A stretch of DNA of 63,055 nucleotides, filler included, from Circinaria calcarea (GCA_051942165.1; 2 parts of 2 records of this genome joined end to end with filler, not necessarily neighbours in it), one strand, 5' to 3'; positions 31,674-63,055 are shown, counted from the whole stretch's first letter. The notes: generated by a model not told the origin, from the sequence alone. Program-made: numbers and translations.

Positions 31674-31773
31674 NNNNNNNNNNNNNNNNNNNNNNNNNNN
31701 NNNNNNNNNNNNNNNNNTTAATTAATTAANNNNNNNNNNNNNNNNNNNNNNNNNNNNNNNNNNNNNNNNNNNN
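31674..31773. other. Artificial contig-joining spacer (44 N + TTAATTAATTAA + 44 N)
   Basis: Exactly 100 nt and symmetric. The 12-mer at 31718-31729 gives stop codons in all six frames, a design used in pseudomolecule linkers. Confidence 0.92.
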
Positions 31774-35930: not shown

Positions 35931-36659
35931 TTCGTCTCGGCTTTGCACATATCTCGAGGTGCGAGAACAGTATGAGGGAGGTAAGTGAGGAATGTTGGGT
36001 TATGTGCAAGGTGGTGGGGGGTTTCTGGTGGAAGTCTTGGTTGAAGTGCTCGAGATATGTGTTAGGATGGCGAAACAGTAACTGATTTCATAAGGAATGA
36101 CAACATAACTTACTCACGATTCCAATTTGATTCGTGTTACATAGAGCAACAACCATAAAGCCGCCCTGTTTCGGGTTCAGGCTTTGACTACTCCGTACTG
36201 GCGGTTTGATATCACGTGGTGCGCTTCTTTCCACTTGACCTGAATGGTTACGTACTTGATCTAAAGGAGATGGACAAGGCGAGTGAGAATTTGGCAGTGG
36301 AAACGCGGAGGGGGAGTGAAGGGAGGTTGGAATGAGGCTGAGGGATACCTCTACGGAGTACTGACCGAGGTTCAAGCCGGATCGTTTATTATGATCACTC
36401 ATCCCGGCGCCCTGGAAGGAGACTTTGCCTCGGCAAGATCGAGGTGGGATAATTCTCATACAACGTCCTGGTGGTAAGCCCTCGATCCTACCAACTTAGT
36501 GCTGTATAAGGTGCCCCTGGCCCTAGCGCGAGGGAAAGCTTGACTGCTCGTTCCGGCACAGCCCGTGCGTACGGAGTACAAGGGCTGTGAGGCTCCTCTA
36601 AGATTCTACGGAGTTAGGCCCGATCTCGGGACGGCGGGGGTACCTGATGTCACACTGCA

Positions 36660-44562: not shown

Positions 44563-47500
44563 TCAGCCTCCCTTGGCCGATTCGAGAATGGCCGCGTCGA
44601 CAAGCTTAGACTTCCTCACAATCTTGGTCGATAGCTGAAGCAAGGAGTCGTTCGCCAGCAGCTCGAGAATAGAGATCGTGCTATCCATCTCACGGAAAAG
44701 CCAATTGCGCATCTCCACCGCGACCAGGGAATCGATACCATGCCCAGACATTGGCCTGGCCGCGTTAATATCGTCCAATGGAATCATCAAAAGCGACGAC
44801 ATCTTAGCGATGATGCACGCGCACACGGTCTTGGCCGCCTCCTCGACAGATGTCGCCTGCCGCAAGGCATCCCGCCCTTTTCCAGCCAGATTACCTTCCC
44901 CACTCTCGGTCCGTTCGTTCTTGAGAGCCATTCTCCGGAAGTGTGAAAACATAGGGGACGCAAAGACCGGTTGGAATCCATCGGCTCTCCAAGTGCCAAG
45001 CCCGGTCACCGTCTGTCCTGATCTCCCCGCCCGTAGAGGAGTAATTATAGCGGACTTCAGCATTGCCATCAGCTCTGCTTCGCGGATCCCCTCAAACTGA
45101 AGCTTCTTTAGGCTCTCCATTACCTTTTCGTTCTCGGCTACATAACCCACGTCTAGGATGACACCGAGATCCAGAGTCACAGCAGGCATCCCCAGGCCAT
45201 TTCGGTAATCTGCGAAAGCATCCAGGAAGGTTGACGCAGCTGCATAAGCCGCCTGGCTAGCGTTTCCGAGAATACCGCTGGTGGAAGAAAGCATGATGAA
45301 GAAGTCGAGATCTGTTTTCGAAAGCTTATTGTGGAGATTCCAAGTACCTTGGACTTTAGGTCGAATAGCTTCCATGTAGTTTTCCAGAGTCATATTCGAG
45401 AACAGTGAATCCTAATTTCCTTAGCCTCGTCATACCAACCAAGCCATGGTCTAAACTTACTCGAAGGACCATTGCACCCTGAATTACTCCCCGAATTGCT
45501 GGCATGGTCTTGGAGCTTTCGGCAATCAGATGATCGAGCTCCTCACCCTTGCTGATATCACAGCTGAAGACGGCCACGCGAGCGCCTTCAGCTTCCAATT
45601 GGGCTACAACATCCTTCGCGGCTTGCTTGACAAGACCGCTACGAGATGCGAATATCAGATTTTTGGCTCCATGTCGCATCATCCATCCTGCTACTGCGCG
45701 GCCAATACCCCCGAGTCCTCCAACTAGGAGGTACGAAGCATCCGCTTGAAGGAGTTTGTAGCTGATGTCTTGTGGTATTGCCTGCAGTGGTTAGCTCAAA
45801 GTCACGAGGGCGAAATGTCTCTTACCTGAATCATGTCTTCCGGATCGGCAATTAGGACTAGCTTGCCAAGGTGTTTTCCAGTTTGCATCGTGCGTAAAGC
45901 CTTCTCGGCTTCAGACATCTTGTAAAGAGTAATGGGCTGCGGAGGCCTGACAGCTCCGCTTCGGATCAGTTCTATAACCTCGGCCCACATCTTCAATGTT
46001 TCAAGTGGCCTTTCATCGCATAGTCCAATGAAGTCAACGCATGCGAAGGTAACGTTCCTGGCGAACCGTGCCATTTCCAGTCGCGTGTTGACTACAAAGT
46101 CTCGTTTACCAAGCTCGATAAATCGTCCGAAAGGTGCAATACAGTCCCACGTTAGTCGGAGTTGATCGCCGGCAACGGAATTCATAATAACGTCTATCCC
46201 TTTATCCTTCGTGGTCCTTAGGATGCCCTTGGCGAATGAGCTGTCACGACTTGAGAAGATATGATCTTCAGGAATTTTATAAGTCTTCATTAGGAATTCC
46301 TTTTTCTCCATAGTCCCAACCGTTGCAAAGATTTCTGCCCCAATCATCTGACAGAGCATGATCATCGCTTGGCCGAGGCCACCTGATGCTGCGTGTACCA
46401 GTACCGTTTCACCTTTCTGCACGCGAGCCACTTTGAAGATAGAGTGATAAGCGGTGCAGTATATGATGGGAAGGGTTGTCCCAACCTCAAACGACATATT
46501 GTCCGGAAGCCTCTGTACTGCTTCGGCTTTTTGGCGGACATAGCTTGAGAAGGTACCATACCCATAGGTAACCACCCGATCTCCAACGTTGTGGCCAGTG
46601 ACGGACTTTCCGATTGCGGTGACAATCCCACTACATTCACCTCCAAGGGGCTCGACCTTAATTTGGCCCATGGCCATCATGACATCTCGAAAATTAAGAC
46701 CTGCTGCTTTGATCTTAACTTCCACGGAATCGTTTTCCAGTGGCAACAACATCCTTGCATCGTCGATGAAGTGAATAGTATCCAGGAGTCCAGGAGTTCC
46801 GATTTCCATGGCCAGTGCACGGCCGTGTTGACCGAATGGCTGATTTGTTGGAACGGCGACTCGAATCGTCGAAGATACAAAGGCATTCAAGGCTCTGTCT
46901 TCAAGAATCCGTGGAACCATGAGATGGCCATCTCTCTCGGCGTACTCTGTTTCAGAAAGATTACCTCCCTTGCCTTCTAAGCCAAAATTCGCTTTGAACA
47001 ACTGGAAGACCATCTCTGCTGCGGATTTGCTTGGCAGGGTATTTTGAGAATCGAGATCTAAAGTTATTATTGGAGTGCCACCATTTTCGGACCTCGCGGT
47101 CCGAGCCAGTCCAGTGATAAGATTGGAGAGCGGTGTGTCAGATGCGATGGTAGCGCCTTTGATGACCCACAAGATGCCTTCCCCTTTAAGGAGTACATTC
47201 TTTATGTTATCAAACTGGCCTGAAGATGGATCAGATAGAACAGATTGTGTCAATTCATTTAACACAATACAAACACGACCTGATGGTTTGGCCTTAGCTA
47301 GCGTTGTGATAGTTGTAGTAACATCCGATTCCTTTAAAAGCTCTTGCAGATAGTCGAGATTAACAGGGGATGAGTTTCCGTCAACGATGATTGTTACCTC
47401 TGGATACTTTCTTGGAGTCGTAACTGTCGCTCTGGAGATAATCATGGATCCTTGGTGTTCGGCTTCGTTAATATTGTCCCAAACAGCGGCATCGACTCCG

Positions 47501-50500
47501 GAGTATCCTGTCTCCTTTAGCAAGACATCCCATTCTTGTTCAGTCAACGTAGGTCCTTTCTGCCGAGTCTCCTCTTCCCCTGAGAACTATCAGCAAATAA
47601 TTATGAGACGGGAAATGTGCAACTAACCTGCCCACCACCCGGGAAGGGTACCGAATATAGTGGAAAGAACCATTCTTTCTCTGGTCAACTCGACCAGGAT
47701 TAGTCTTGCTCCGGGTTTAAGAAGCTTTCGTACATGGGCCATGATTTTGTTCATGGAACTGGTGGCGTGAAGAACGTTGGCAGCAATCACAACATCATAA
47801 GACTCCGACTTGAATCCCTGATCCACCGGATCCACTTCCACATCCAGCTTCCGAAACGTGATGAGATTGCCCCACGCCGCGGTTTTCGATCTGGCAGTCT
47901 CAAAAAATCCACTCGAAATATCTGTGAACTCGTAGTTAGTGAATCGAGGCAATTCGCCATTCGCACCCCCCAAAGCCTTCAGTATTGGCATCGTCGCACC
48001 TCCAGTCCCGGCGCCTATTTCAAGAATGTTCAAATGTGGATTCTTATGAGCTAGCATGTTGATATAAGCAGCCGCGTATTGGTAATTGCGGCTCATTCTG
48101 CTGTTGTTCGCATAGTAGTTGTCCAGCCTATTCTCCTCAACCATCAAAGAGAGTGGTTCGATCTCCTTCCTTAATATGGCAGGCAGATTCTGACCGATAT
48201 GACATAGAAGGTTGCCCTCGTCTGACGACAAGCGAACCCGGTCAAGTACCTCGACTTTTCCAGCATCACTTTCATTGAGCCATTCAGAGGTTGAATAGCC
48301 GAGTGAGCCTTCCTTTACCGCGTTGCAGAAAACTTCCATGCATGTGTAAAGCTTTTTATGATGATTATGCATTTTTGCAATCTCAGTAGAAGGAACAAGC
48401 TTTAGGGCGCGTTCCATGTAGTAAAAGCCGGCTTGCTCCAATGCTCGAATCATACCTGCGTCGTCTAAGGGAGCCAGTATGCCACTGCAGATTGCGCCGA
48501 TATCTTTCGAAGAGAGGAAGTCGGCATCTTGCTCCCAGTGCATAGCAAAGCATAGCTTGCGCCCTTCTTGCAGATCTTCACCTCTCACATCTTTTGTCAG
48601 CGCAGTACAAACTAACCCTGTTATCGTGATCATCGGCTCGCAATCACCTTGGTGCGTATTCATAACCGACATAGTGGTACTGTGTTGCCGAAAATCCTTC
48701 TTCTCACTTTTCGCATAGACGACAAATTCCTTTCCGGGTTCATTACTGATCTTCATCGAGACGAAGAGCTCTTCAATATAGGTTGGTACCATGGGCGCGG
48801 TGATAGGTCCTTGTCCTTCGGCGATTGCAACGAATAAGGGATGGAAGCAACTATCGAGAGTCGCAGGATGTAAAATATAAGGAAACTGAAAATTCATGGG
48901 CATCACAGATGCCGTGTCTGGTACAGTGATCTTGGCTACACATGAATTGGGGGATGCGTAAGCCGTGCCCATGTTTGCAAAAGTAGGGCCATAGTCAAGG
49001 CCAATAGCCCTCAAACTCTCGTAAAGTTCCTTTGTGTCAATTTCAGTCTTACACTTAGCCTCCGCGTGGACCATTGTCTCCTTGTATATTTCAGCTTCTT
49101 CTTTGCAGTATCGAGTTCCATTAACTTCGCTTGGATTGGCAATTTTCTGGATTGATATCAGACCGCGGCAATGCTCCATCCAGTTATCATCCTCGGTAAC
49201 TGAAAAGATGCAAAACTCATCCCAAAGATCAGACGGCGCTCGAACGCTTTCATTGAAAGGCCTTAGGGTAACCATGGTCTCCATCTCAGGCTGATAATCG
49301 GGTATCAACAACGCCTGGCCAATCGTCACCTCACGAAGTGTGAATCCTGATATCTGCGCTCCTCGGTCAATGGCACGCTGATGTGCAGCTTCAATTGCCA
49401 TGGTGACAAAGCCTGCAGCTGGATATACCATGCTGGCTTGCACTTTATGATCTCTCACCCAGGGTATTTCCGCGGGCCGAATGATATTCCGCCAACGTGG
49501 TTCCAGAGGATTCGAGTTGCGGTCCAATACACCTAGGAGATCATTCCGTGGGTGCTTCCTGTTACGATATGTCCGGCTAATTCGAGACTCAGCCCATAAG
49601 GGGGTCGAATGATTCCATGCATAGGGTGGTAGATCGACCAATGCTATCTTACTCTCATTTCCGAATGGACGATTCACAGTGGCAGTATTGACGATAAGCC
49701 CCTTTTGAATGAGATGGCACACTAGCTCTTGGGAGGTTGTGACCGCACTCGTGTTTCTTTTGAGAGCGGAAACGTAGCTTATAGCAGCGTCTCTTAGCTT
49801 AGCTTCAGCTCCCAGTATTTGTTTGATCGGACCTGCAAGCGCAGAATGCGGTCCGATCTCAACCAGTACATCAACTGCGGCGCCAGCAGCCCTCTTGCGT
49901 CGTTTCTTGCCAACAGATGATCCAAGACAGAGGTTGCGCAGGGAATCCGAAAACCTGACTTGTCCGACCATATTGGAGACCCAATATTCAGCATCTAAAC
50001 TCGAGGAATCGAGGCGGTCGCCAGTCACGGACGAGTAGAACTCAACTTGCTCTGGTGATTGAAGCTGGAGGCCAGCCAATAATGCTCTGTAGTCATCCGC
50101 GACAAGCTCCATATGATGGGAATGATAAGCAGTGTCAACAGCTAGCTTCCGAGCAAAGATCTTCTTACCCTCAAGCACCATTTGAAGCTCAGAAACAGCA
50201 GCTTCATCGCCAGAGATTGTGACGCTAGAGGGACTGTTTTCGCAAGCAACCTTAGCTATGCCCTGAGTCAATCCGGCAATAAGAACTTCTGCTTCGTTCT
50301 TGGAAGTCCCAACGGCCATCATTGCCCCGCGAGAAGCTGATCGTTTCTGGATTTGGGTCGTGACAATACCCCGATAATAAGAGATAGACATGGCAGACTC
50401 TAAGGTTAAAGCACCTATAGCGTATGCTGCTGCAATCTCGCCAGAGGAATGACCTGTCACCACTGCAGGTCTGATATTCCAAGATATCAAGAGGTCCACC

Positions 50501-52905
50501 AAAGCTATTTGGATAGCAGTACACAGCGGCTGGCTCAACAATGCCATCCCTACTCGTGACGTTTCTGAATCTTTTAATAACTCATCTGCGTATCATCAGT
50601 ATTGCAACAAGCCTAGGCGGGAACATTAAGATATACCCATCAAATCCCAAGTTGCTCCAATCTTCTTCAGGTATTTACCTGCCGTTATGATAACTTCCTT
50701 AAAGATCGGGTAGGCCTGAATTAGTTCGCGACCCATTGCGGACCATTGGGCTCCTTGTCCAGTGAATACATAGCCTAGGGTCGGGACCTTTGCTGCCTTG
50801 AAAAGCCTAAGGTCACCCTCAAGTTTTTCTATTAGATGCGATAGTGAAGTCGCGGATAAAGCTGTTTTCCAAGGCAACATTGATCGGCGTTCGTTAAGAG
50901 TGAAAGCCAAATTATCCAAGTCATCGTATTTGGAACGCCCCTGACGCTTCTGGAGATAAGCGGCCAGATTTTTAGCCTGTTGTTTTCCGGAATTCTCGTC
51001 AAAAGATGACAAGACGTAGACCCGACTGCTACTACAGTCCTCAACGCTAGCAGAACCGTTGGCAGAATTGGGATTGCTCTCATTAGGCATATGGATTTGG
51101 TGGGCACTCTGTTTTAGTTGCAGAGGCAAAGATGAAAGGGAGGATGTCGTCCTATATGATCCTTCGAGACCTCTTGATGTCAAGTAACTCCGAGCGTCAT
51201 CAATAATGACATGTGCATTGGTCCCTCCATAGCCGAAGCTATTGACGGAAGCTCGACGCAAGAAAGAATTCCAAGGCTCAGTGGTTGTTGGAACTCTCAA
51301 TCTCCAGTCGTGCATTGGAATACGCTCGTTGGCCTTCTCAAAGTTGCGATTTGGTAAAATAAGGTCATTTTCGAGCATAAGTACAGTTTTGATAAGGCCG
51401 GCCAAACCACTAGCACCCTCTAAATGCCCCATGTTCGACTTAATAGACCCAATTCTGAGAGGTTTTTCCGCAGGTCGTCCAGGCGCAAAGATCTTGGCGA
51501 TTGCACCGCATTCAATTGGATCTCCAGCTGGAGTCCCAGTGCCGTGTGCCTCTATATAACTCGTCTCTAGAGGGTCAAGGCCAGCGCCTCTGTAAACACT
51601 GGCAATGAGTGCCTCTTGGGCGTCCTTGCTCGGGAGTGTAATACCGGCAGTCTTGCCGTCTTGATTGAGTCCCGTATTCCGAATCACGCCTCGTATGGTG
51701 TCACCGTCCTTCAAGGCGGCTTCCAGGGACTTGAGAACAACACATGCCGCCCCTTCACCACGTGCATAACCATTCGCACGATGATCGAAGGAATAACAAC
51801 GTCCATCAGGAGACAGGAATCTAAAAGCAGAGAATAAACGAACAGAAGAAGGTAATAAGCTAAACATGATAAAGTGCTTACCTCATCATATTCATCGTAA
51901 TCATGATCTCGTGACTCAATATCACATTCGAACCACCAACGATAGCCTGCTTCGACTCGCCGCTCCGAATAGTCTGACTTTAGCGAGCACGAGGGTTAGC
52001 CGCGCATCACGGCGCTGATCGGGAAGAACCTTACCACGCCAGATGGAGCGCGACTAAGCTAGCCGAGCAAGCCGTGTCAACAGAGACACTCGGCCCTTTG
52101 AGGTCAAAGAAATATGACAGCCGATTGGATAAAAAGGCAAGCGAGGGTCCGCCTCCGGTCGCCTGGAAAATAGGCAGGGTCTCGGTGTCTCGGTACATGA
52201 TATCTGTGAAGTCTCGGCAAAAGGAGCCTACAAAGACCGACGTATCAGAGCCGACCAAGTTTTCCATAGGGCACCCGGCTGCACATTGGTTAGCAACGTA
52301 CGAGAAAGTGGAAATATAATCAACCGTTTTCTATCGCTTCATAACATGTCTCGAGTAACAGTCGCTGCTGTGGGTCCAGGGCCTACTGATGTAAGCCTTA
52401 TAAGCAAATAGAAACTGTAGAGCTTGACATACAGCAGCTTCAGTACTCGTCATATTGAAGAACGGTGCATCAAATAGAGCTCGGTCCTCTTTGAGAAAGT
52501 GACCACCGAGGATGTTCGACTGGATGTTCATCAGCAAGTCTTTGTGCCAAATGAATGGGACAATCATACCGTGCCATTTCTACTCGAATCGGGATGATAA
52601 AACGCATCTGCATTGTATTTCTCTTTAGGCATTAGATTCCAAGCTTCTCGTCCTTGAAGAATCATATCCCATAGATTCTCGGGGTTGGTGGCGTCCCCCG
52701 GACAGCGACAGCCAATTCCGACAATTGCTATTGGCATTGTCTTGTCCCCACCGAAATGCCGACTGACGTGGGACGGGTAGCCATTGACCCCGCCGGTATT
52801 ATCATTCATCTGATTTTGACTCCCATGGGCAGTCGAGTAGGTATTGTCCCGTGAAGTCCTATTTACTGGATGAGGTACCCTATTGCTTAGGAACGAAGGC
52901 ATCAT
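44563..52905 (-). CDS. Highly reducing iterative type I polyketide synthase (KS-AT-DH-cMT-ER-KR-ACP)
   Basis: KS: DTACSASL, EAHGTGT, KSNMGHLE. AT: GHSSGE, AYHSHHM. DH: DHKVQASMVYP, HPATLD. cMT: ILEIGAGTGG, NVLHAT. ER: LVHAASGGLG. KR: GGLGGIG, YAAAS. ACP: GIDSLVAVE. No C-terminal release domain. Confidence 0.96.
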
Positions 52906-54484
52906 GGGGTTGAACGTGGGTTCTATAGCATCGGCTATAGAATATAAGCTGCTAGGAAAGGGTTGGGAGTTCTCGATCAATTGAAGTAGAAAGAGAGTAC
53001 TTATAGAGTATATGGTCTCCGTACAGTAGATGCTATAAAGTTATGACAGCTTAGTACTGGAAAGCTTCCGCTGGTTTTTCTGGCTCCAAGCTTTTCCGTC
53101 GACTTAATTGCAAGCAGGCTTTATATTCGACACTAACGTTTACCATAGCCATCCTTGTCAATTGCCAAAACAAAAACTCACCATTACCAAAATAATAATA
53201 CACTAGAATGATCCGCAGTGGAGATAGGAAAACTGTGCATAAGGTTTACTCATGAACAAGTATCCTTGTATCCACCCGTTCCGTCATGCTTGGTAAATGG
53301 CAAGTATGACAGCGGCTGTATATCGCCACCGATAAGCTCTAACTCCTTCACAAGGAACGAAAGCGTGCACTCCGGCTCAAGTGACCGAATATGGTCTAGA
53401 TAGACCCGTTTTATTAGTAAGGAATGGTCTTCTAATGCCCCTGACCTGATCGATCGTCCGCGGGGACTTAATTTGCGCATATGCATATAGCAGTGCGTTA
53501 GGCGTTTCCAATCTCTAATTGAGTAACGAGCTCTTCATATGATGGATCTACCAGGTTGGCAAGATCGAACATGACAAAATTGAACTAAGAGAATAGCCCT
53601 GATGAATACGACTAGCCAATCGGCTTAGGCGGCAAACATGTATCTGAAAATGCCTGCCTTAGGAAAAAGCAAAGAAGATTCAGCTATTAGATATGCATAC
53701 TTTTAACCCTGTACCGGAGCATACGTACACCGCATTACAAATCTCCTCTATGGACGTGTAGGCTTCGCACTATCTACCTTGGTTGATCCTAGTAAAGCTC
53801 CTAGCGTTGTGCAAACCCTCGCTGGATCCTTCGCTAGATCACGCCTATCACCAGCTCACATAATGTTTCGATCTCGTACATGCTCCAGATGAAGTGGATC
53901 GCGGCTGACGGCAGAATTCTATCAGAGACGGCTTTAGGTAGAAGCTGTAAAAAAAGCGGTGAAGATCTGCATTCAAGGCAAAGCAGGCAAATCATTTTCC
54001 ATGGGTAGCGGCAACTGCTTAATCACTCATCTCGGCCTCAGGGCAAGCCTCGGGGAAAATGGACACCGAGCTTACTCCGTACTGGTATGCTGCTCGATGT
54101 CGATAGGAAGTACCGGGTAATGCCCGTCGGAAAACCCTGTTGGTATAATTGCAACTATTCAGCCTCGTCAATAAGCTAAAAGCTCTCGTGCAAACAGCGA
54201 CTACAGTAGCGCGGCTATCATGCAATTTTGGTGCAGATGCCAGGCCCCTTTAAGCCTAGGTGTATGGTAATCAGGCAAATACTAAATACCTAAATTTCCG
54301 GTACTTTTCGGTACCACCTATACGGTACCGCCTCGCTACTTATCCCTAGTATTTTTGATCGAGTTGGGAAACAGGATGCAACATATCTTTATTATTTAAT
54401 TCTTATCATATAATTATCGATATGCTTGCTATGCCCAAAAGTTTGTAGACTTTACTAAGAGCTATTATATTTTAAATTATCAAT

Positions 54485-56091
54485 ATGAGCTTCCTACCAG
54501 GTACTTTTGCAGACACTAACACACCAAGTCTATATGATCAGGTCATAGTTGATATTAAGGACTATGTCTTTCATTACCAGTCCTTTAGTACCAAAGCATG
54601 GGCTTGTGCTCGTACAGCGGTTCTCGATGCTCTTGGATGTGCTATAGAAAGCCTTTATAGCAGTCCCGAGTGTAGACATATGCTTGGGCCTATAGTACCG
54701 GGCAGTTCAGTACCCAATGGCTTTAGATTACCTGGCACAGCATATCAGCTGGATCCAGTAAAAGGAGCATTTGACTTGGGAACATTGATCCGATACCTGG
54801 ATCATAACGATGCATTGGGTGGTGCTGAAGCAGGACATCCATCAGGTAATTTCTGCTCACTCGTCCGAAGCTCCATGTAGCTACTAATCATGACGCTGTG
54901 CTCCCCATAGACAACTTAGGCGCGCTTATCTCTGTGTCAGACTGGCTCTCTCGATCAACCTCAAATAGCGACACCTATCATAAAGGACCGCCGCTGAACA
55001 TACGGACGCTTCTGACCGCTACAATAAAGGCATACGAGATTCAGGGATGTTTCCAGATACGTAATGCCTTCCACGTTCGAGGCCTCGATCATACTATACT
55101 GGTCAAATTAGCCTCAACGGCTGTCGTGTCTTGGCTCCTCGGACTCGGAGAAGAACAGACAATGGCGGCCATCTCTCACATATGGATGGACAGCTCTCCG
55201 TTGCGCGTCTATCGTCACGCTCCCAACACTATCCCGCGCAAAGGATGGGCTGCTGGAGACGCTTGCATGCGTGCGGTGCAGCTTTCACTCCTTGTGCGTT
55301 CTGGTCAACCCGGTGCTCAGACAGTACTATCTGCGTCACGTTGGGGTTTTCTCGCAACCTACTGGAACAACGATACTTTCTCACTTCCTAAGGTTTACGG
55401 AACCTGGGTCGTAGAGAACATCTTTTTCAAGCTGATCCCCGCAGAAGGCCATGGAATATCTGCCATCGAAGCTGCTTTGCAGCAGTCTATCAGACTCCGA
55501 AGTCGGGGACTCGATGCCAGTTGTAACATTCGCCGAGTAAAAGTGCGTACTCATGCAGCAGCTATCAGGATCATTAGTAAGACGGGGGATCTGTATAATG
55601 CCGCCGACCGCGATCATTGCATTGAGTATATGATCGCAGTGACGCTTTTGAAAGGTGCTGTCCCGGAAGTAAAAGATTATAACAACGAAAGCCTCTGGGC
55701 CAAAGATCCTTGTGTCACTGCACTGCGTTCCAAGGTCGAGATTAAAGAAGATGAGCAATTCACGAGAGACTATCTTGATCCAGTCACCAAAAGTGCAGCA
55801 AGCGCGATATCGATTGTCCTGGAGGATGGATCCGAGCTAGAGGAAGTCGCAGTCAAGTACCCGATAGGACACGTCGAGAACAAAGACACTACCTCGCATG
55901 TGCTCGCGAAATTCCGGACGAACATGGCTTTGATGTTTACGGAACAGGAGATCAATGGGATTTTAGCGGCGATTGAAAACGAAGATATGCCTGTCTCCTT
56001 GTTTATGGATTTGTTCGTTCGGCCAAGGGAAAACGATAGTGGCGAGAGGAAAGGGAAGGATAGAGAGGATGGAATGAAGTCTAAGTTGTAA
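54485..56091 (+). CDS. MmgE/PrpD-family 2-methylcitrate-dehydratase-like enzyme (alkylcitrate dehydratase)
   Basis: LDPVKGAFDLGTLIRYLDHND, GHPS|DNLG (one intron), YRHAPNTIPRKGWAAGDA and NAADRDHC motifs. Ends in SKL. Confidence 0.92.
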
Positions 56092-56323
56092 AATAGCGGA
56101 AAGATATTCCAATGGAGCGGTTGTGGCACGTGATACCGATCAAAGCAATGACCTCATTTCCATCCAACCGCCTTATGATCTCTGAGATCGCGGTAGGAGA
56201 CGATTGCTCTGGACGAGGCAAAGTATCTACCATATTGTTATAATGCGAAGTAGATTGCACATCTATCTATCTCGTGTCGATACTATGTCCCGTTCCGCCA
56301 AGTCCATAGGTTATGTTGCCATC

Positions 56324-57288
56324 CTATAACTTTTCAAAGGTCGGGCTTCTTTTCTGAATTCCAGAAAGTAGAGCTTGAGCCACATCGACCGACTGCACGT
56401 ATCCGGCGTTCCAAACACCTGTGTAACGGAGGCCTACCGTGCACATTAGCAGCCAGGCTTTAAATAGCTTTGCCAGAATACTCGCTGTTCTGAATGGTGT
56501 GGTCGCGGCTGTAGTTCAACAACTCCTTGGTACCAATCACGGCAACCGGGCTCTTGCTTGCCAACAGCTTAGCAAGTTTGAGGCCTTCGGTGAGAGCGTC
56601 TGCCTTTGTTTCCATTACCTTATTGACGAAGCCTTCTCGCAGTGCCTCATTGGATCCGAAGGTCCTTGCTGTCAAGCACACCTCTTTGACCCAGCCAAAA
56701 TTGCGGACGATCTTCGGAAGCCGATTGAGTGTTCCCAAGTCAGCTGCGAGGCCTATATCGACTTCTTTCACACTCATTTGTACATCGCTGGAGCACAGTC
56801 GGATATCACAACAGCAGGCGACATCAATCGCAAAACCTATGGAAAAGCCATGGAGGATGCAAATCACGGCTTTCATCTCCAGTCAGCTATCACCCTGTAG
56901 GCCCTAAATGGCAAGATCGGAGAAGGTCTGCGGGATACATACGTTTCTCGCAGCGCTCTATAGAAGTGATGCAATCTTGGATTTCTATAACGACCCTACG
57001 AATCTCGTTGGCTCTCCTTCCTGGGTCCATTCCCCCACTTTGGTCCAGTATCCCACCGGAACTTGCCTCGTTCACGTCGAGTCCAGCAGTGAAGGCTCGG
57101 TCTCCAGCGCCAGAGAGAATTATGCTCCGGACATCCGGGTCATATGACAACTGGTCGAAAATTTTCCTTAATTCCAGCCACATGATCTTTACAAAGGTGT
57201 TCATACGAGTTGTGCCATTGATCTCAACATAAGCGACGAAGGGGCTCGGAAAGTTAACCTTAAAGTAAGTAAGATCGTATGGGGACAT
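56324..57288 (-). CDS. Enoyl-CoA hydratase/isomerase (delta3,5-delta2,4-dienoyl-CoA isomerase-like)
   Basis: SGAGDRAFTAGLD, KEVDIGLAADLGTL, and SKSPVAVIGTKELLNYSRDH motifs. Two introns; the last exon ends RSPTFEKL*. Confidence 0.9.
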
Positions 57289-57600
57289 CTTGCTATATTA
57301 AAAGGAGGGAAGGAGATACTGGCCCAATCCGCACGACCGTCTAATACTAAATATGTAGCCCTCCTTCCCGATGGCAGCCTGACTCAAGGGACAATACGGG
57401 GTTCTACACTGCAGAAGATAAGCTACATGCGTCATAATTAATTGTGGGTCCAAGCAGTCATAACGACGGAATTTCGAGGCAATCTCTTATGGTCTCCCAA
57501 ACATATATATAATGTACTTGTCTCCCATGTTGTCCTACCGATTCTGCTTATCGAAACATACCTCAATTATATCTACTCTTCGTTGAAGCTGATCTAAATA

Positions 57601-58348
57601 ATGCCAAACCTAAGATTTCTGTGTCTACACGGTGCAGGTACAAGTGCAAGCGTAAGTAGTCTGTCTCCTGAACTATTGCTTTCCCAACCTGTCATATCTC
57701 GGAGTCTAACAGGATCAACAGATCATGGAGTCTCAGCTAGGCCCATTGGCTTATGAACATAGCAAAGACAATAGTGCAGAATTCGTGTATCTGGAAGGAG
57801 AGATACCTTCACCGGCCGGCTCTGGTGTCGGAGACGTCTATGAAGGGCCCTACTACAGCTTTTACCCTTGGCCGCCTGAAATGGAGCCAGGCCAATATGA
57901 GAGATCCAGGGAAGAAGCGTACCAACTCATTTACGAAACGATCGAGGAAGATGGCCCCTTTGACGGTATCATTGGATTTTCACAAGGCGCCACCCTCACT
58001 TACTCGTTTTTGCAACATCATGCCAAAACCCACCCGTTTGACCCCCCCTACTCGCCATTCAGGTGTGCAGTCTTCATCTGCGGCCTTCCTCCATTCAGAC
58101 TTGACACGAGGGCCACAATGCTCTTTGACGACATCCAAACCAAGGTTTCGATACCCACGGTACATATTGCGGGTAAGAGTGATGATGTCTTCAAGCATTC
58201 CCTTGCCTTGTACGATATGTGCAAAGCAGAGACGTCTACATTGCTCTGTCACAGCCAGGGTCACACGGTCCCTTGGAACCGTCAGATCACCGTGGCCATG
58301 GCTAATGCGATCCGAAAGCTCGATAGCCAAGCGACTATGGGGGGATAG
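57601..58348 (+). CDS. FSH1/DUF341 serine hydrolase (LovG-like polyketide-releasing esterase)
   Basis: MPNLRFLCLHGAGTSAS|intron, GPFDGIIGFSQGA nucleophile motif, IPTVHIAGKSD and HSQGHTVP. Confidence 0.9.
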
Positions 58349-59515
58349 ATTTTTCCAGCACGGTTGAAAGGGGGAGATTTGCCTTGCTTGCCGAGCTCGT
58401 GATCTCAAGCGGCCGGACGTGTGGTGCCATGGGTAATAGCCGTGGAAGGATTCATCTGCAGAGATGCCCGTTTCTTGAAATCCGTGGAGCATCGGCTGCA
58501 TGGAGAGATAGCGCCAATAATCTAGAATTCAATTTCATACTGCGATGGCTTATGCTGCAAATGATAGCTACCCCCTGCTTCAGCGTGAATGCCTCGGGAG
58601 TAACCCTTGATGACAGCGACGCCTCCAACGGGGGGCTAGCTTAGTCGACTCGTCACCACCCAGACCAGGCGTTTTCTCCGACATCGGGCAAAAGGTACGG
58701 AGTAGCTTCCACAAACCGTCTCGCGATGTCGAGGTTCGAATGAACGATAAAGATGTATCGTGGGATGGTTACCATGATCCCGGATGGCAGGTACGTCAAG
58801 GTGCAGAATCGCTTACCATATCTTAGCGCAGCTTGACGGTTAGTCGGTACCTTAGCCTGCTCAGGCGAAGACGACGGATGTCCGGCAACAAACTGGCTGT
58901 CAGTGGCGGCAAAGATAATGGGACGGCGCGAAGGAAGACGGACCAGCGGGAGGAGAGAGGTTGAGCCGGGTAAAGACCAACTGAGCGGCAAGCCGATGTG
59001 AAATGATTGGTGGTGTGGAATCCAGGTTCTCCCGCTGCTTACTCGGCATCATCCATCGCTTCGATCTTCCTTTCCCATTCCTTCCGTTCGTCCCTGTCGA
59101 TGCTTATCTTCATTCCTAACTGCAGGGCAGGCACACACACACCCCTGCTGCAGGGCCGAGCAAAGCTTAACTCTTGAGGCTCCGGAACCGTTGGAGATCC
59201 CATTTGATCTCCACCACACATGAGTCCTTCGAAGGAGAATGGTGGTTAGGGTAAAACGTCAATATGAGACCGGCAGGTGCGGTCATCAATGCCAGGTCAT
59301 CATGTAACGACGAGCTCTCACCGCTTGATCTGCTCTTCCTTCGCGCCCTCGCATCATTCTCCTGTGCCGCCCACGTCTTTCGGACCGCCTGATGGGTGCA
59401 CCGGCAGCAGCACTGGGTCCCGCAAATCCACCCTACCCTACGAATCAAGACTTCACTCCTCGCCCCAGGCTCTTTTCTGTACAGTGAGGACAATCTCCTG
59501 TTGACTTGGTCAAAG

Positions 59516-61069
59516 ATGTCAGACGGAGTCCTTCACGTTCAGGACTCCCGGACTGCGAAGAGATATGAAATTCCTATCCACCACAACTCGATACGGGCAA
59601 CCAGCTTCAAAGACATCAAAGCCCCAGTTCTATGCTCGCACGCCGCGGACAAGCCCCAGGGCGGACTTCGTATTTACGACCCAGGTCTTCAGAACACGGC
59701 GGTCGTTGAGTCCGAGATAACCTACATGTATGCCGTCGGACTGTTCCCAATCGTACGAGTGTCATTTCCGACTGATAGGTCCTGTTCACCTGCAGAGACG
59801 GAACGAAAGGTATTGTCCAATATCGCGGTCATCGTATCGAGGAACTCTTCCAGACCAGCGAGTACGAGGATCTCTTACATCTTTTCGTCTGGGGCAATCT
59901 GCCATCATCGGAGGAGAAGGCCAACTTGCGGCAGAATCTTGCCGTGGCCACCCAAAATGTCCCTCCGAGTGTCATCGAGACCATTCGGTCATTCCCCCGA
60001 GATGCAGCTCCAGTACCGATGATTATAGCGGGCCTTTCAGCGTACCTCGTGACGGATCCGACAAGCATCCCTAGTGTGATGGGTAGAAATCTCTATCATG
60101 GCATCCCGAAGGCAGTTGATTCTGCCATAATACGGACACTGGGACTCTACTCGGTCGTCATCGGCCTTGTCGCCAGTCACCGAGCTGGCAAACCATTCCG
60201 GTCCGCCGATCCCCGTGGAGGTTTCCTGGAGAACCTCCTTCTCATGATGGGACTTGTCGACCCGCACACTGGACGGCCGGATCCAAAGCACGTAGCAGCA
60301 GTACAGCATACCTGGGTCCTCAGCGCCGAACATGGTTCGACAAACTCCACGTCGGCAATGCTCCTGACAGCATCAACTTTGGCGGATCCAATATCCTGCC
60401 TTATCGGTGCCCTTGCCTCGGGATATGGCCCTCTCCATTTTGGTGCCACCGAGGTTGCCTATAAGGTCATGGCGCAGGTCGGGCATCCCGACAATGTACC
60501 GCAGTTAATTGATCGGGTCAAGGCCGGTGAAGAACGACTGTTCGGCTACGGTCATCGAATGTACAAGACGGTCGATCCGAGGGTTGATTTCGCCAAAGAG
60601 GTACTGGAGGAGTTGAAAGCCGAGAATCCTTTGCTGGCCGTTGCTGTCGAAATCGATCGCATTGCATCTACAGACGAGTACTTCATTTCACGCCACCTCA
60701 ACGCCAACGCAGATTTGTATGGAGTATTTATCTATATTGCACTGTATGCTACTCCCTTCAAATTCGCAATTATATTGTCCCCTTCCCGTCACCCCCGAAG
60801 GGTGAAGCATAATACCAGTACCTAACCCATCCGTTTGATATCTTAGTGAATATCCCCCAGAACTAGTTCCTGTCATGATGATGGCCTCACGATCGGGAGG
60901 CCTGATGGCGCACTGGCGAGAAGCAATGAGTATGTCCCTACCATCCTTCGCTCTACCGTTGCTGTCTCCTGACCCTTTTTTTTGTTCTCTAGATCGACGT
61001 AATGAGATATGGCGGCCACAGCAGATATACACTGGTCCGATTGCCGCTACCTCGAGCCCGAAATTGTGA
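59516..61069 (+). CDS. Citrate synthase-like enzyme (alkylcitrate synthase)
   Basis: MSDGVLHVQDSRT, YDPGLQNTAV, AEHGSTNST, YGPLHFGA, LFGYGHRMYKTVDPR, NANAD and IWRPQQIYTG motifs. No mitochondrial presequence; ends PKL. Confidence 0.92.
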
Positions 61070-61542
61070 TAGTTCTTTGGCGATGGGAGGTCTAAAGATC
61101 TTCACCGGTGTTTCTCTAACCTGTCATGCATGGCTCTAGTTTCAACGTGTCGTGAAGATGAAAATTCAATGACCAAACTTTAAGAGTGCATGCGTATCAC
61201 CCGAGTGATTTTGTAGAGAAGCTTGAATGGTAAATTAGCTATACAACGTAAACGGCCCCTCTTCCTCCTAATAACGTGCCACAATCCCCGGGGGGAGTTC
61301 ACATAGGCAGTTCACGTTCTACCATCCTAGGGATCCGGGTGCTTCCGCCAGAATCTCTCGTCATGCACAGGACATGACCGTTGTAAGAACCACATCACCG
61401 TATTCCGCAACCCTAAATCTGCACCGCACATCCTAGCAAGACCTGGCGAGTAAGCCACCGAGCAGGGTTTAAAACCACGCCCTCACCCCGTGCTTCCACC
61501 TAAAACTCACCCGTGGGTCTTATATCGCGATCGACCATCACC

Positions 61543-63055
61543 ATGACTCCTCCTCGCTCTCCCCAGGACACCGAGCTCCTCAAGTTTGCGGAAGCCGAGG
61601 GTGCAACTCTCAAACTCTGCAACTGGGTCCATTCCGTCACGCTCGATAGCGTTCCCTCCGAAGTGCAGATTCGCGCCAAGTATCTCATCCTGGATGGGCT
61701 GACCGGTGCCATCGTTGGCGCTCACCTGCCATGGTCGGAGATTGCGGCGGAGGCTGTCTTGGGTATGGAAGGAGCGGGGAGTTGCAATGTAATTGGATGG
61801 GAGAAGGTATGTGGTGTATGAGAGGAGGAGCGAGAATTCTTCAAGGACTGATGATTGAATGCGCCCTTATCTCTCTTTTCCTTTGGGGCCCTTGGCCATA
61901 GACTTTTTTCAGCCAGGGACTCCTTTTTCTACCAATTCCCCAGTAGCAGATGATTCTCTGATCGTTTCTGCCGGCAGAAAATTGGTCCTCTAGCCGCCGC
62001 CCTCCTCAATAGCACCTTCATCCAAGGTTTCGAGATAGACGACTACCACAGCGTCGCACCCCTCCACTCAAACGCTATTCTCCTTCCCGCCCTCTTCGCT
62101 GCAGCCGAGCACGTCGCCAATCCCACGAGCATCATTCCTCTCAACGGTTCTTCTCTTCTCCTCGCCACCATAGTTGGATACGAAGTCGGCCCCCGGATCG
62201 GCCTCGCTCTCCACGGCGCAGACATGCTCTCCATGGGCTGGCATTCCGGCGCTGTATTTGGTCCTGCGGCATCAGCTGCCGCTGTCAGCAAGCTGCTAAA
62301 GCTGCCGGTAAAATCTATTGAAGACGCCATCGGGATCGCGAGCACGCAAGCGTGTGGGTTGATGTCGGCACAATTTGGAAGCATGGTGAAGCGTATGCAG
62401 CACGGGTTTGCAGCTCGGAACGGTTTGTTCGCCGCGCTGATGGCCAGGGGCGGCTATACGGGTATCGAACAAGTGCTGGAGCGTCCTTACGGTGGGTTTC
62501 TCAAAACCTTCAGCCAGGGGTCTGGTCGCAAGCCTTCATACCTGGAGGACGAGGTGACCAAGAAGCTGGGCGAAACGTGGCAGATTCACGATATACGGGT
62601 CAAGCCATATGCGGCCATGGCGGCAACACATTCTGCGATTGACTGCGTCGTGGCGTTACAAAGGGACTATCCGCAGCAGATGGAGGACTTGGACGGCATT
62701 ACCCGGGTAGAAATCGAGATGTCAGAGCCGGCGTATAAGCATGGAGGATTTGAGGCTATTCGACCTTTCACGAGTACTACCGCCCAAATGAATGCTGGGT
62801 ATGTCGTGGTGCTTCAAATCCTGGAGAGACAGGTGCAACCTAGGCAATTTCGCCAGAGTCAGCTCGACCGGGACGTCGTCTGGAATCTGTTGGGCAGGAC
62901 CGTCTGCAAGCATAACCCGGAGCTCGACAAGGAGCCATGGACTCAGCGCATCACGATTGATTTCGAAGGGAAGCCATCCCTGACAAGGTCGGTCAAGGCG
63001 CCGAAAGGAGTTGATCCGGCCATGTCCAATCAGGATATTTTGGACAAGTGGAGGA
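61543..63055 (+). CDS. cis-Aconitate decarboxylase-like (CadA/IRG1, MmgE/PrpD fold), 3' end outside window
   Basis: RAKYLILDG...GAHLPWS, intron 61807-61977, LNSTFIQGFEIDDYH, PLHSNAI, GWHSG, QACGLMSAQF and KRMQHGFAARNG. These motifs are characteristic of CadA-like rather than PrpD-like proteins. Confidence 0.88.

What the first reader, a model, noticed from the sequence alone, without database searches (positions are those of the whole stretch)
44563..63055. HR-PKS-primed alkylcitrate cluster with a CadA-like decarboxylase: candidate alkylitaconate/paraconic-acid pathway
Seen: six contiguous genes encoding HR-PKS, PrpD-like dehydratase, enoyl-CoA isomerase, DUF341 hydrolase, citrate-synthase-like enzyme and CadA-like decarboxylase. 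Known: HR-PKS + DUF341 hydrolase + alkylcitrate synthase + dehydratase is the maleidride core (byssochlamic acid type). Synthase + dehydratase + decarboxylase giving alkylitaconates is known from the oryzine and sporothriolide clusters, which use dedicated fatty acid synthases. Inference: this locus mixes both logics (polyketide acyl chain to alkylcitrate, alkyl-cis-aconitate, then alkylitaconate). It could make itaconate or alpha-methylene-butyrolactone (paraconic-acid-like) products by a route I do not recognise as characterised.
Basis: partly seen in the sequence, partly recalled or inferred. Interest (0 to 1): 0.88.

Follow-up and report, generated by a model that had tools for sequence, protein, structure and literature searches.

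The report
Polyketide alkylcitrate cluster with CadA-like decarboxylase
A lichen fungus carries an intact gene cluster that joins the polyketide machinery of the maleidride family to an itaconate-type decarboxylase, a pairing I could not find described, but the assembly ends before the product class can be settled.

Summary
All six genes are present and look intact: HR-PKS (44563-52902, -), true 2-methylcitrate dehydratase, crotonase-type isomerase (minus strand), FSH1/DUF341 hydrolase, citrate synthase, and a second MmgE/PrpD protein of the fungal CadA family, cut about 41 residues short.

The window is two contigs joined by an artificial spacer (31674-31773). The cluster contig is 31774-63055 and 63055 is an assembly end. 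It matches a public Circinaria calcarea (lichen) MAG.

The cluster is larger than reported. Upstream lie an SDR, MFS transporter, P450, dienelactone hydrolase and a secreted six-bladed beta-propeller. The last three also occur in cornexistin-type maleidride clusters.

The PKS and citrate synthase group with PKS-linked (maleidride-type) enzymes. The decarboxylase groups with CadA-like proteins that sit beside citrate synthases elsewhere. One other contig repeats the pairing.

No KSI-like or PEBP gene is on the contig, but both ends are open. The nearest PKS-synthase clusters (Lachnellula, a second Cadophora locus) were not among published cyclase-containing clusters.

My lean is enzymatic decarboxylation to alkylitaconate-type monomers, with a truncated maleidride cluster as a serious rival. 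It is a new variant of known kinds, of moderate to high interest.

The parts
31674..31773 (.). Artificial contig spacer (N44-TTAATTAATTAA-N44). Everything left of it is a different contig with no known physical link to the cluster.
   Evidence: contig length 31282 given for P0242/P0122/P0001
32342..33593 (-). Short-chain dehydrogenase (three exons, approximate limits). Possible tailoring enzyme at the left contig end.
   Evidence: adh_short hits; translations
33990..35999 (-). MFS transporter (several exons). It is 31-37% identical to the MFS genes next to the CAD-CS-MCDH cassettes in L001/L002 and L009.
37456..39056 (+). Cytochrome P450 (at least three exons). By eye its C-terminal exon resembles the P450 of the Imshaugia aleurites orphan maleidride cluster printed in the Williams 2022 supplement.
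   Evidence: p450 Pfam 4.4e-33; translation; compared by eye, no alignment run
39809..40751 (+). Dienelactone hydrolase (about four exons, limits approximate).
   Evidence: Pfam DLH 6.9e-06 on exon 40166-40570; translations
41512..42585 (-). Secreted six-bladed beta-propeller protein of the PvL7/AsR5/EupfF family, with a signal-peptide-like N-terminus.
   Evidence: ESM Atlas 0.97 to 'six-bladed beta-propeller-like' clusters; PDB EupfF 3.3e-24 and PycR1 3.4e-22; no Pfam hit even at E 5
44563..52902 (-). Highly reducing PKS, KS-AT-DH-CMeT-ER-KR-ACP, 2627 aa. Motifs DTACS, GHSSG, LEIGAGTGG and GIDS are all present.
   Evidence: (P0242, 100%)
54485..56091 (+). Alkylcitrate (2-methylcitrate-type) dehydratase, a true PrpD, with one intron.
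   Evidence: (E 1.8e-94 to 1szq)
56460..57288 (-). Crotonase-fold enoyl-CoA isomerase-like protein with one intron (GTATGT...AAAG, which restores ...CEK-PVICILHG).
   Evidence: ECH_1 1.3e-15 and 1.5e-09; best PDB match delta3,5-delta2,4-dienoyl-CoA isomerase, 4e-32; junction
57601..58348 (+). FSH1/DUF341 serine hydrolase (AlnB/BfL1-type chain-release hydrolase) with one intron.
   Evidence: FSH1 6e-31; junction
59516..61066 (+). Alkylcitrate synthase. NCBI model P0122 stops at 60822, but a further exon from 60839 carries the citrate-synthase C-terminus.
   Evidence: Citrate_synt 1.1e-69; tree
61543..63055 (+). CadA-family (MmgE/PrpD) putative alkyl-cis-aconitate decarboxylase. Intron 61807-61977. 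Cut by the contig end about 41 residues before the C-terminus.

Best explanation
**What it is.** This is a PKS-primed alkylcitrate biosynthetic cluster of a lichen-forming fungus. It spans at least 11 genes on a 31.3-kb contig.

**Proposed route.**
1. The HR-PKS builds a reduced (possibly methylated or enoyl) acyl chain.
2. The FSH1 hydrolase releases the chain.
3. The crotonase-type isomerase sets the double-bond position or geometry of the acyl-CoA.
4. The alkylcitrate synthase condenses it with oxaloacetate.
5. The PrpD-type dehydratase gives an alkyl-cis-aconitate.
6. The adjacent CadA-family enzyme removes the CH2-COOH carboxyl with an allylic shift. The product is a 2-methylene-3-alkylsuccinate (alkylitaconate) rather than a stable maleic anhydride monomer.
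7. The P450, SDR, dienelactone hydrolase and beta-propeller then oxidise and lactonise or hydrolyse this monomer, and the MFS pump exports it.

**Expected product.** I lean towards monomeric itaconate or alpha-methylene-lactone (paraconic-type) acids rather than dimeric maleidrides.

**Shown.** Gene content, gene integrity, family membership, phylogenetic placement, and conserved linkage of the decarboxylase family to citrate synthases.

**Inferred.** Every catalytic step, the substrate, and the end product.
For: - All six core genes plus five neighbours are intact.
- The last protein is 55-65% identical to a large fungal family: 2279 proteins at E<=1e-10 among the 7998 candidates scored.
- That family includes the probable OryM/HadA group. 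P0077 of A. coremiiformis is 59% identical, and its accession is two steps from a citrate synthase. The same spacing holds in Pleurostoma.
- OryM is reported as 55% identical to A. terreus CadA (Wasil 2018 table).
- SpoK acts with SpoE and SpoL to give octylitaconate (Tian 2020 passages).
- Overexpressing hadA shifts hexylaconitate to hexylitaconate (Palys 2020 abstract and passages).
- The four residues shared by mammalian CAD, A. terreus CAD and IDS epimerase (His103, His159, Lys207, Lys272) align with H118, H177, K226 and K297.
- In the CAD tree the window protein lies in a 20-row clade (SH-aLRT 92). The clade also holds L002 (PEBP-CAD-CS-MCDH-MFS), L009 (CS-CAD-MCDH), L013 (FAS-linked) and P0009.
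- P0009 shares its contig length (29551) with P0127, and P0127 is the sister of the window's synthase (97*). The PKS-type synthase plus CAD pairing therefore recurs in a diverged genome.
- No PEBP, SnoaL or NTF2 Pfam hit appears among the 96 small ORFs or the larger ORFs. No unassigned ORF has coding signal.
- The nearest PKS-synthase relatives are Lachnellula (63%/62%, accessions four apart) and Cadophora PVH89083/PVH89078 (57%/53%). Neither is among the cyclase-containing clusters in Williams 2022, although that study found another cluster in the same Cadophora genome.
- Wasil 2018 argues that an in-cluster aconitate decarboxylase prevents anhydride formation.
Against: - Both contig ends are open, so a dimerising cyclase could lie just outside the contig.
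- Pfam may not recognise maleidride cyclases, and I could not search with a known cyclase sequence.
- Eight gene families are shared with the Imshaugia aleurites orphan maleidride cluster, which does have a cyclase: PKS, hydrolase, synthase, dehydratase, isomerase, P450, dienelactone hydrolase and beta-propeller.
- By eye, the PKS CMeT region and the P450 C-terminus resemble that group (against 36-37).
- The exo-methylene decarboxylated monomer is itself a proposed maleidride dimerisation partner (Williams 2016). Enzymatic decarboxylation therefore does not exclude dimerisation.
- The four conserved residues are also conserved in methylcitrate dehydratase or IDS epimerase, so they do not prove decarboxylase activity.
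- The other four hCAD active-site positions: D93 to E, T97 to Y, H277 to M; Y318 is kept as Y341.
- The passages I read of an Ostropomycetidae lichen chemistry review report no itaconate or paraconic-type compound from Circinaria or Aspicilia.
- No expression data could be obtained.
Confidence: 0.45

Rival explanations
1. This is a cornexistin/Imshaugia-type maleidride cluster cut by the contig ends, with the dimerising cyclase (KSI-like) lying off-contig. The CadA-like enzyme supplies the decarboxylated (type B/C) monomer enzymatically, or helps to remove one anhydride ring. The product is a dimeric maleidride.
For: - The PKS and synthase fall with PKS-linked, maleidride-type enzymes.
- The isomerase is a common maleidride gene.
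- The adjacent beta-propeller and dienelactone hydrolase, plus a P450, match the extras of the cornexistin, I. aleurites and T. borbonicus clusters.
- The gene order DLH/propeller-PKS-dehydratase resembles the I. aleurites accession order.
- Oikawa's group invoked an unidentified decarboxylase for a long-chain monomer (Williams 2016 passage).
Against: - No cyclase or PEBP candidate is present among 11 genes on 31 kb.
- No CadA-like gene is listed for any of the 19 clusters in Williams 2022 Tables S1 and S2, and the main text has 0 occurrences of 'decarboxylase'.
- The closest PKS-synthase clusters were not recovered by that study's cyclase-requiring search.
- The I. aleurites synthase is not among the 120 best hits of the window's synthase, so the two clusters are not close orthologues.
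Confidence: 0.27
2. The CadA-like gene is not part of the PKS pathway. It is the first gene of a neighbouring PEBP-CAD-citrate synthase-dehydratase-MFS cassette, whose remainder lies beyond 63055 and which uses primary-metabolism acyl-CoAs.
For: - Its closest relatives with readable context (L001/L002, 65% identical) sit in exactly such a cassette, with no PKS or FAS within 10 kb.
- Those cassettes use citrate synthases of the other main clade.
- A. terreus and A. ambiguus gene models fuse a PEBP domain to the homologue.
Against: - The gene lies about 480 bp downstream of the PKS-type synthase on the same strand.
- The same pairing (sister synthase P0127 plus CAD-like P0009) appears on another contig of 29551 nt.
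- An MFS gene of the cassette type is already on this contig.
Confidence: 0.12
3. The second MmgE/PrpD protein is not a decarboxylase here. It acts instead as an isomerase/epimerase or as a second dehydratase on the alkylcitrate or alkylaconitate.
For: - The MmgE/PrpD superfamily includes dehydratases and IDS epimerase, and the conserved residues are shared among them.
- IDS epimerase scores as well as CAD in the PDB search.
Against: - Per the papers I read, the characterised fungal members of this family (CadA, SpoK, HadA, and OryM by prediction) are decarboxylases of (alkyl)aconitates.
- A true PrpD dehydratase is already present in the cluster.
Confidence: 0.08

Closest known systems
Maleidride clusters (byssochlamic acid bf, cornexistin pv, scytalidin/zopfiellin; orphan Imshaugia aleurites and T. 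borbonicus clusters of Williams 2022)
   Same: - HR-PKS, FSH1/AlnB-like hydrolase, alkylcitrate synthase and alkylcitrate dehydratase.
- Enoyl-CoA isomerase, plus the P450, dienelactone hydrolase and six-bladed beta-propeller seen in the cornexistin-like subgroup.
- The synthase is 48% identical to BfL2 and PvL6 and lies in the same 99* clade.
- The PKS is 52% identical to ScyPKS.
   Different: - No KSI-like cyclase and no PEBP on the contig, though both contig ends are open.
- It carries a CadA-family gene that none of the 19 tabulated clusters lists.
- Its synthase sits in a separate sub-clade with Lachnellula, Aureobasidium and lichen sequences.
Sporothriolide (spo), oryzine (ory) and piliformic acid clusters
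   Same: - The sequence alkylcitrate synthase, 2-methylcitrate dehydratase, CadA-like decarboxylase.
- An oxygenase, hydrolase/lactonase-type tailoring enzymes and MFS transporters.
   Different: - The acyl chain comes from dedicated FAS alpha/beta subunits there. Here it comes from an HR-PKS with a release hydrolase and an isomerase.
- The oxygenase there is an alpha-KG dioxygenase. Here it is a P450.
- Synthases that sit beside CadA-like genes elsewhere (my proxy for the FAS type) fall in the other main clade.
- The ory lactonases are gluconolactonase-like, whereas the propeller here is nearest to EupfF/PycR1.
Aspergillus niger alkylcitrate (akc) cluster with unlinked hadA
   Same: Synthase, dehydratase and dienelactone hydrolase, with a CadA-family hexylaconitate decarboxylase converting aconitate-type into itaconate-type products.
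   Different: It is FAS-based, and the decarboxylase is on another chromosome in A. niger. Here the chain source is a PKS and the decarboxylase is the next gene after the synthase.
Aspergillus terreus CadA / mammalian IRG1 (ACOD1)
   Same: - The same MmgE/PrpD fold.
- Equivalents of His103, His159, Lys207 and Lys272 are present.
- The fungal family is named after CadA; OryM is 55% identical to CadA.
   Different: - CadA acts on unsubstituted cis-aconitate from primary metabolism.
- Three of the four other hCAD active-site positions differ, as Chen 2019 reports for all four in A. terreus CAD itself.
PEBP-CAD-citrate synthase-dehydratase-MFS cassette (metagenome loci L001/L002; L009 without a detected PEBP)
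   Same: It holds the closest CadA-like sequences with readable context (65% and 51%), and has homologous dehydratase (60%) and MFS genes.
   Different: - No PKS, hydrolase or isomerase within 10 kb.
- Its citrate synthase belongs to the other clade.
- As far as my searches show, it is uncharacterised.

Membership tests
Maleidride biosynthetic gene cluster (core set of Williams 2022) | Iterative highly reducing PKS | tested here: met
   The domain set is KS-AT-DH-CMeT-ER-KR-ACP. Identity is 52% to ScyPKS and 45% to PhiA. Motifs are intact.
Maleidride biosynthetic gene cluster (core set of Williams 2022) | AlnB-like/FSH1 hydrolase, alkylcitrate synthase and alkylcitrate dehydratase | tested here: met
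   FSH1 scores 6e-31. The citrate synthase lies in the clade with BfL2 and PvL6 (99*; identities confirmed by accession). The PrpD scores 1.8e-94.
Maleidride biosynthetic gene cluster (core set of Williams 2022) | Maleidride dimerising cyclase (KSI/NTF2-like) | tested here: inconclusive
   No SnoaL/NTF2-type Pfam hit appears in the 96 small ORFs or the larger ORFs. No unassigned ORF has coding signal. However, Pfam may miss this family, no cyclase sequence was available to search with, and both contig ends are open.
Maleidride biosynthetic gene cluster (core set of Williams 2022) | PEBP-like protein (ancillary; absent from three orphan clusters) | tested here: inconclusive
   No PF01161 hit is found on the contig, but the contig is truncated. 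PEBP is readily detected by the same scan in L002.
FAS-type alkylitaconate clusters (sporothriolide/oryzine) | Dedicated fungal FAS alpha and beta subunits supplying the acyl chain | tested here: not met
   There are no FAS domains on the contig, and an HR-PKS is present instead. FAS beta is detected by the same method in L013.
FAS-type alkylitaconate clusters (sporothriolide/oryzine) | Citrate synthase, 2-methylcitrate dehydratase and CadA-like decarboxylase together | tested here: met
   All three are present within 8.6 kb. The synthase, however, belongs to the PKS-linked clade.
FAS-type alkylitaconate clusters (sporothriolide/oryzine) | Alpha-KG dioxygenase (SpoG/OryG) and gluconolactonase-like lactonases (SpoH/J, OryH/L) | tested here: inconclusive
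   There is no TauD-type hit, and a P450 is present instead. A six-bladed propeller is present, but its nearest solved relatives are EupfF and PycR1, not gluconolactonases. I had no SpoH or OryH sequence to compare.
Fungal CadA / cis-aconitate decarboxylase family (protein level) | MmgE/PrpD two-domain fold, closer to IRG1/CAD than to PrpD | tested here: met
   Both Pfam domains are present. The top PDB matches are IRG1, IDS epimerase and CAD, with no PrpD above threshold. A branch of length 5 separates it from true PrpDs.
Fungal CadA / cis-aconitate decarboxylase family (protein level) | Residues equivalent to hCAD His103, His159, Lys207 and Lys272 | tested here: met
   They align with H118, H177, K226 and K297 of P0001 and are invariant in alignment A1. 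The residue list comes from Chen 2019. These residues are not unique to decarboxylases.
Fungal CadA / cis-aconitate decarboxylase family (protein level) | Decarboxylation of (alkyl)-cis-aconitate to (alkyl)itaconate | not testable with these tools
   This needs an enzyme assay or heterologous expression.
Delta3,5-delta2,4-dienoyl-CoA isomerase-like 'maleidride enoyl-CoA isomerase' | Crotonase fold with dienoyl-CoA isomerase as the best characterised relative | tested here: met
   ECH_1 hits on both exons. The best PDB matches are 2vre, 8sk6 and 1dci at about 4e-32, against 1.7e-17 for the next hydratase. Catalytic acid residues were not checked.

The most novel reading that the evidence does not exclude
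A maleidride-type polyketide/alkylcitrate core has captured a CadA-family decarboxylase. The pathway is thereby diverted from anhydride dimers to polyketide-derived alkylitaconates and alpha-methylene-gamma-lactone (paraconic-type) acids. This would be the first PKS-primed member of the itaconate/sporothriolide logic, and it is found in a lichen mycobiont. Together with the widespread PEBP-CAD-citrate synthase-dehydratase cassette, it would give the first genetic handle on lichen aliphatic and paraconic acids such as protolichesterinic acid.
Probability: 0.4. Interest if true: 0.75.

Novelty: new variant of a known kind. Interest (0 to 1): 0.6.

Why it matters
**Two known families, one untested bridge.** Alkylcitrate-derived fungal metabolites fall into two characterised families. 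PKS-primed clusters give maleic-anhydride monomers that are dimerised (maleidrides). FAS-primed clusters use a CadA-like decarboxylase and give alkylitaconates and lactones (sporothriolide, oryzines, hexylitaconate). A cluster that places the decarboxylase behind a PKS-type core tests whether that single enzyme is the switch between the two chemistries, as Wasil 2018 proposed. It would also open polyketide-branched itaconates and alpha-methylene lactones, a pharmacophore class, to genome mining.

**If the cyclase is present.** If a cyclase does lie off-contig, the cluster would still be of interest. It would supply the first dedicated decarboxylase for maleidride monomers, a step so far treated as spontaneous or adventitious (Williams 2016).

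**Lichen acids.** In the library I searched, no gene cluster is linked to lichen paraconic or aliphatic acids. This locus and the related cassette are therefore concrete candidates to test.

Tried and rejected
**Getting sequence beyond 63055**
- No whole genome is held for this window.
- No sequencing run was listed for 60800-63055 ('none was listed', not 'none exists').
- The metagenome records behind L001, L002, L004, L005 and L009 are not held for handle searches.
- Context of relatives is therefore limited to +/-10 kb in the 80 metagenome loci and to accession order for named NCBI proteins.

**Earlier scan notes**
- Nothing was found by place, sequence or words.

**Beta-propeller**
- Pfam at E<=5 gave nothing. 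Its family rests on the ESM Atlas and the PDB search.

**Comparisons I could not make**
- I could not compare directly with SpoK, OryM, HadA, CadA, any dimerising cyclase, PvL7, PvL11, or the I. aleurites proteins.
- None was among the stored hits, and I did not type sequences from the paper supplement. Those resemblances are by eye only.

**Mislabelled tree rows**
- I labelled P0128 (Cadophora) and P0217 (T. atroroseus) as 'maleidride BGC'. Their accessions and the CMeT comparison show they are not the synthases listed in Williams 2022.
- P0167 (Cercospora zeae-maydis) carried the same label and was never checked.
- Only BfL2 and PvL6 are verified maleidride synthases in that tree.

**Ideas rejected**
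- The left half of the window (Diels-Alderase, trans-ER-like genes) belongs to the cluster. Rejected: it is a different contig.
- The CadA-like gene is a pseudogene. Rejected: it has one clean intron and no stops.
- The weak PKS_ER hits in L037 and L044 (25-26% identity) are meaningful. Rejected: they are generic dehydrogenase similarity on bacterial-looking contigs.

**Limits of the contig-length matching**
- It was done by eye on the best 120 rows of each of three searches, so misses are possible.

Full report
**What the window is.** The window is fungal (introns, about 50% GC). It consists of two contigs joined by an artificial spacer, N44-TTAATTAATTAA-N44, at 31674-31773. All three are from a metagenome-assembled genome of the lichen-forming fungus Circinaria calcarea. 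So 63055 is an assembly end. No whole genome is held, and no sequencing run was listed.

**The six genes.**
- Pfam finds a complete HR-PKS with KS, AT, DH, CMeT, ER, KR and ACP domains. The KS cysteine, AT GHSSG, CMeT LEIGAGTGG and ACP GIDS motifs are all present.
- The first PrpD-family gene (54485-56091) matches E. coli 2-methylcitrate dehydratase at E 1.8e-94.
- The crotonase gene lies on the minus strand (56460-57288). Its best solved relatives are delta3,5-delta2,4-dienoyl-CoA isomerases (about 4e-32).
- The hydrolase is FSH1 (6e-31).
- The citrate synthase scores 1.1e-69. It needs one more C-terminal exon than the NCBI model has.
- The last gene has both MmgE/PrpD domains, but its nearest solved relatives are IRG1, IDS epimerase and cis-aconitate decarboxylases (E 1e-19 to 1e-22).
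- Introns are canonical and I saw no frame disruptions.
- The last ORF runs to the final base of the contig. Compared with P0005 it lacks about 41 residues.

**The cluster is bigger than reported.** On the same contig, upstream of the PKS, lie five more genes:
- an SDR,
- an MFS transporter,
- a P450,
- a dienelactone hydrolase (Pfam 6.9e-06),
- a secreted six-bladed beta-propeller (ESM Atlas 0.97; PDB EupfF 3.3e-24 and PycR1 3.4e-22; no Pfam hit).

A scan of 96 small ORFs gave only 2 hits: the DLH and the synthase C-terminus. None was to PEBP, SnoaL or NTF2 families. A codon-usage scan found no further ORF with coding signal.

**Where the parts come from.**
- *PKS.* Its best named relatives are Lachnellula suecica (63%), a Cadophora sp. 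DSE1049 PKS (57%), ScyPKS of scytalidin (52%) and PhiA (45%).
- *Synthase tree* (42 rows, 39 of the 120 listed hits, quick method). There are two 99* clades.
  - One holds synthases that sit next to CadA-like genes or belong to Aspergillus sections Nigri and Flavi.
  - The other holds PKS-linked synthases, including BfL2 and PvL6. Their identities were confirmed by accession.
  - The window's enzyme falls in a sub-clade (support 93) with Lachnellula, Aureobasidium and three lichen sequences.
- *CadA-like tree* (48 rows, 34 of the 120 listed hits). The window protein lies in a 20-row clade (support 92) with these members:
  - L002, in a PEBP-CAD-CS-MCDH-MFS cassette;
  - L009, in a CS-CAD-MCDH arrangement;
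  - L013, next to a FAS beta subunit;
  - the A. aculeatus, A. coremiiformis and Pleurostoma proteins.
- In A. coremiiformis and Pleurostoma the CadA-like accession is two steps from the citrate-synthase accession. I infer, but did not verify, that this group holds the OryM/HadA orthologues. P0077 is 59% identical to the window protein.
- *Conclusion.* The locus combines a PKS-type core with a decarboxylase whose relatives serve non-PKS alkylcitrate modules.

**Is the pairing real?**
- The CadA-like gene starts about 480 bp after the synthase, on the same strand.
- Comparing (by eye) the contig lengths of the 120 best hits of each of the three searches, only the C. calcarea contig holds PKS, synthase and CadA-like hits together.
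- One unnamed contig of 29551 nt holds both P0009 (CadA-like, 62%) and P0127, and P0127 is the sister of the window's synthase (97*). Linkage kept at that divergence argues for function rather than accident.
- Lachnellula has the same PKS-to-synthase spacing (accessions four apart, as here). It has no CadA-like protein among the 120 best hits. The decarboxylase therefore looks like a lineage-specific addition.

**Function of the decarboxylase.**
- Chen 2019 (passages) lists eight hCAD active-site residues. His103, His159, Lys207 and Lys272 are shared with A. terreus CAD and IDS epimerase.
- In the HMMER alignment these four correspond to H118, H177, K226 and K297, which are invariant in alignment A1.
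- The other four positions: D93 to E, T97 to Y and H277 to M, while Y318 stays Y. The paper says all four differ in A. terreus CAD as well.
- The residues are compatible with CAD activity but do not prove it.
- The functional argument is by family, from passages I read:
  - SpoK with SpoE and SpoL gives octylitaconate (Tian 2020);
  - hadA overexpression shifts hexylaconitate to hexylitaconate (Palys 2020);
  - OryM is 55% identical to CadA (Wasil 2018).

**Maleidride or not?**

*For a maleidride reading.*
- The isomerase is present in 50% of maleidride clusters, and its deletion lowers titres (Williams 2022; RSC Adv 2025).
- The beta-propeller, dienelactone hydrolase and P450 are the extras of the cornexistin, Imshaugia aleurites and T. 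borbonicus clusters.
- By eye, the CMeT region and the P450 C-terminus resemble that group.
- The exo-methylene decarboxylated monomer is itself a proposed dimerisation partner (Williams 2016).

*Against a maleidride reading.*
- No cyclase or PEBP candidate is on the contig.
- No CadA-like gene is listed in the tables for 19 clusters, and the Williams 2022 main text has 0 occurrences of 'decarboxylase'.
- Wasil 2018 states that such a decarboxylase is absent from known maleidride clusters and would prevent anhydride formation.
- The Cadophora PKS-synthase pair nearest to this one (PVH89083/PVH89078) is not the Cadophora cluster of Williams 2022 (PVH77194-77207). That study's search required a cyclase and reported only one cluster for that genome.
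- This suggests that a family of cyclase-free PKS-alkylcitrate clusters exists, and that this locus belongs to it. It is an argument from absence.

**Likely chemistry (my own reasoning, not a tool result).**
1. Acyl-CoA plus oxaloacetate gives an alkylcitrate.
2. Dehydration gives an alkyl-cis-aconitate.
3. CAD-type loss of the CH2-COOH carboxyl, with an allylic shift, gives a 2-methylene-3-alkylsuccinate.
4. Hydroxylation at C-1' of the chain, followed by lactonisation, would give an alpha-methylene-gamma-butyrolactone-beta-carboxylic (paraconic) acid. This is the skeleton of methylenolactocin and protolichesterinic acid.

The P450 and the hydrolase-type enzymes could serve steps 3 to 4. Passages of an Ostropomycetidae lichen chemistry review report no such compound from Circinaria or Aspicilia. 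My searches found no paper linking lichen paraconic or aliphatic acids to genes.

**Verdict.**
- The locus is a new variant that bridges two known alkylcitrate logics.
- My leading reading is enzymatic decarboxylation towards monomeric alkylitaconate or lactone products (0.45).
- The main rival is a truncated cornexistin-like maleidride cluster (0.27).
- The question is decidable by closing the contig ends and by heterologous expression with and without the decarboxylase.

Noticed in passing
window 31674-31773: An artificial separator (44 N, TTAATTAATTAA, 44 N) joins two unrelated contigs of 31673 and 31282 nt. Gene neighbourhood must not be read across it.
   Followed up: yes
window 1-12452 (other contig): This looks like a fragment of a second secondary-metabolite cluster at a contig start. 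It holds a TRI12-like MFS pump (2-838), a Zn2Cys6-like protein (1857-3464) and two ADH/enoyl-reductase-like ORF groups (4128-6662). It also holds a Diels-Alderase with DA_N and DA_C domains (6999-8288, E 3.5e-42), a DUF3425 protein (9664-10575) and an SDR (11472-12452). The trans-ER plus Diels-Alderase pattern resembles decalin-forming PKS-NRPS clusters. The megasynthase would lie off-contig.
   Followed up: no
window 16236-31297 (other contig): Housekeeping-type genes: a D-2-hydroxyacid dehydrogenase, a hybrid histidine kinase with PAS/HisKA/receiver domains (18398-23091, -), NAT10/Kre33 RNA cytidine acetyltransferase (24030-26864, -) and a GT90 glycosyltransferase (29297-31297).
   Followed up: no
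window 60822-61066: The public gene model of the citrate synthase (P0122, 413 aa) ends at an in-intron stop. A further exon from 60839 encodes the conserved citrate-synthase C-terminus (Pfam 0.0074 on the short exon; motif seen in translation).
   Followed up: partly
L002 8191-17602 (same as L001); L009 2218-13363: A compact cassette (PEBP, CadA-like, citrate synthase, PrpD dehydratase, MFS; no PEBP detected in L009) has no PKS or FAS within 10 kb. Its CadA-like protein is 65% (L002) or 51% (L009) identical to the window's. Public A. terreus (ATEG_08909) and A. ambiguus models fuse a PEBP domain to the homologue, so the PEBP-CAD adjacency is widespread. I found no description of this cassette. 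It is a candidate route from primary fatty acyl-CoAs to alkylitaconates.
   Followed up: partly
L020, L024, L030, L055, L072 (and many of L014-L080): Intronless homologues at 47-51% identity lie on contigs with 63-68% GC that are densely covered by ORFs, so they look bacterial. In the quick tree five of them form a tight long-branch group nested among fungal sequences. This could reflect inter-domain transfer or long-branch attraction.
   Followed up: no
L013 1759-12742: A CadA-like gene (52% identity) lies next to a Zn2Cys6 regulator and a fungal FAS beta subunit. This is a sporothriolide/oryzine-type FAS-primed alkylcitrate cluster in a metagenome contig.
   Followed up: partly
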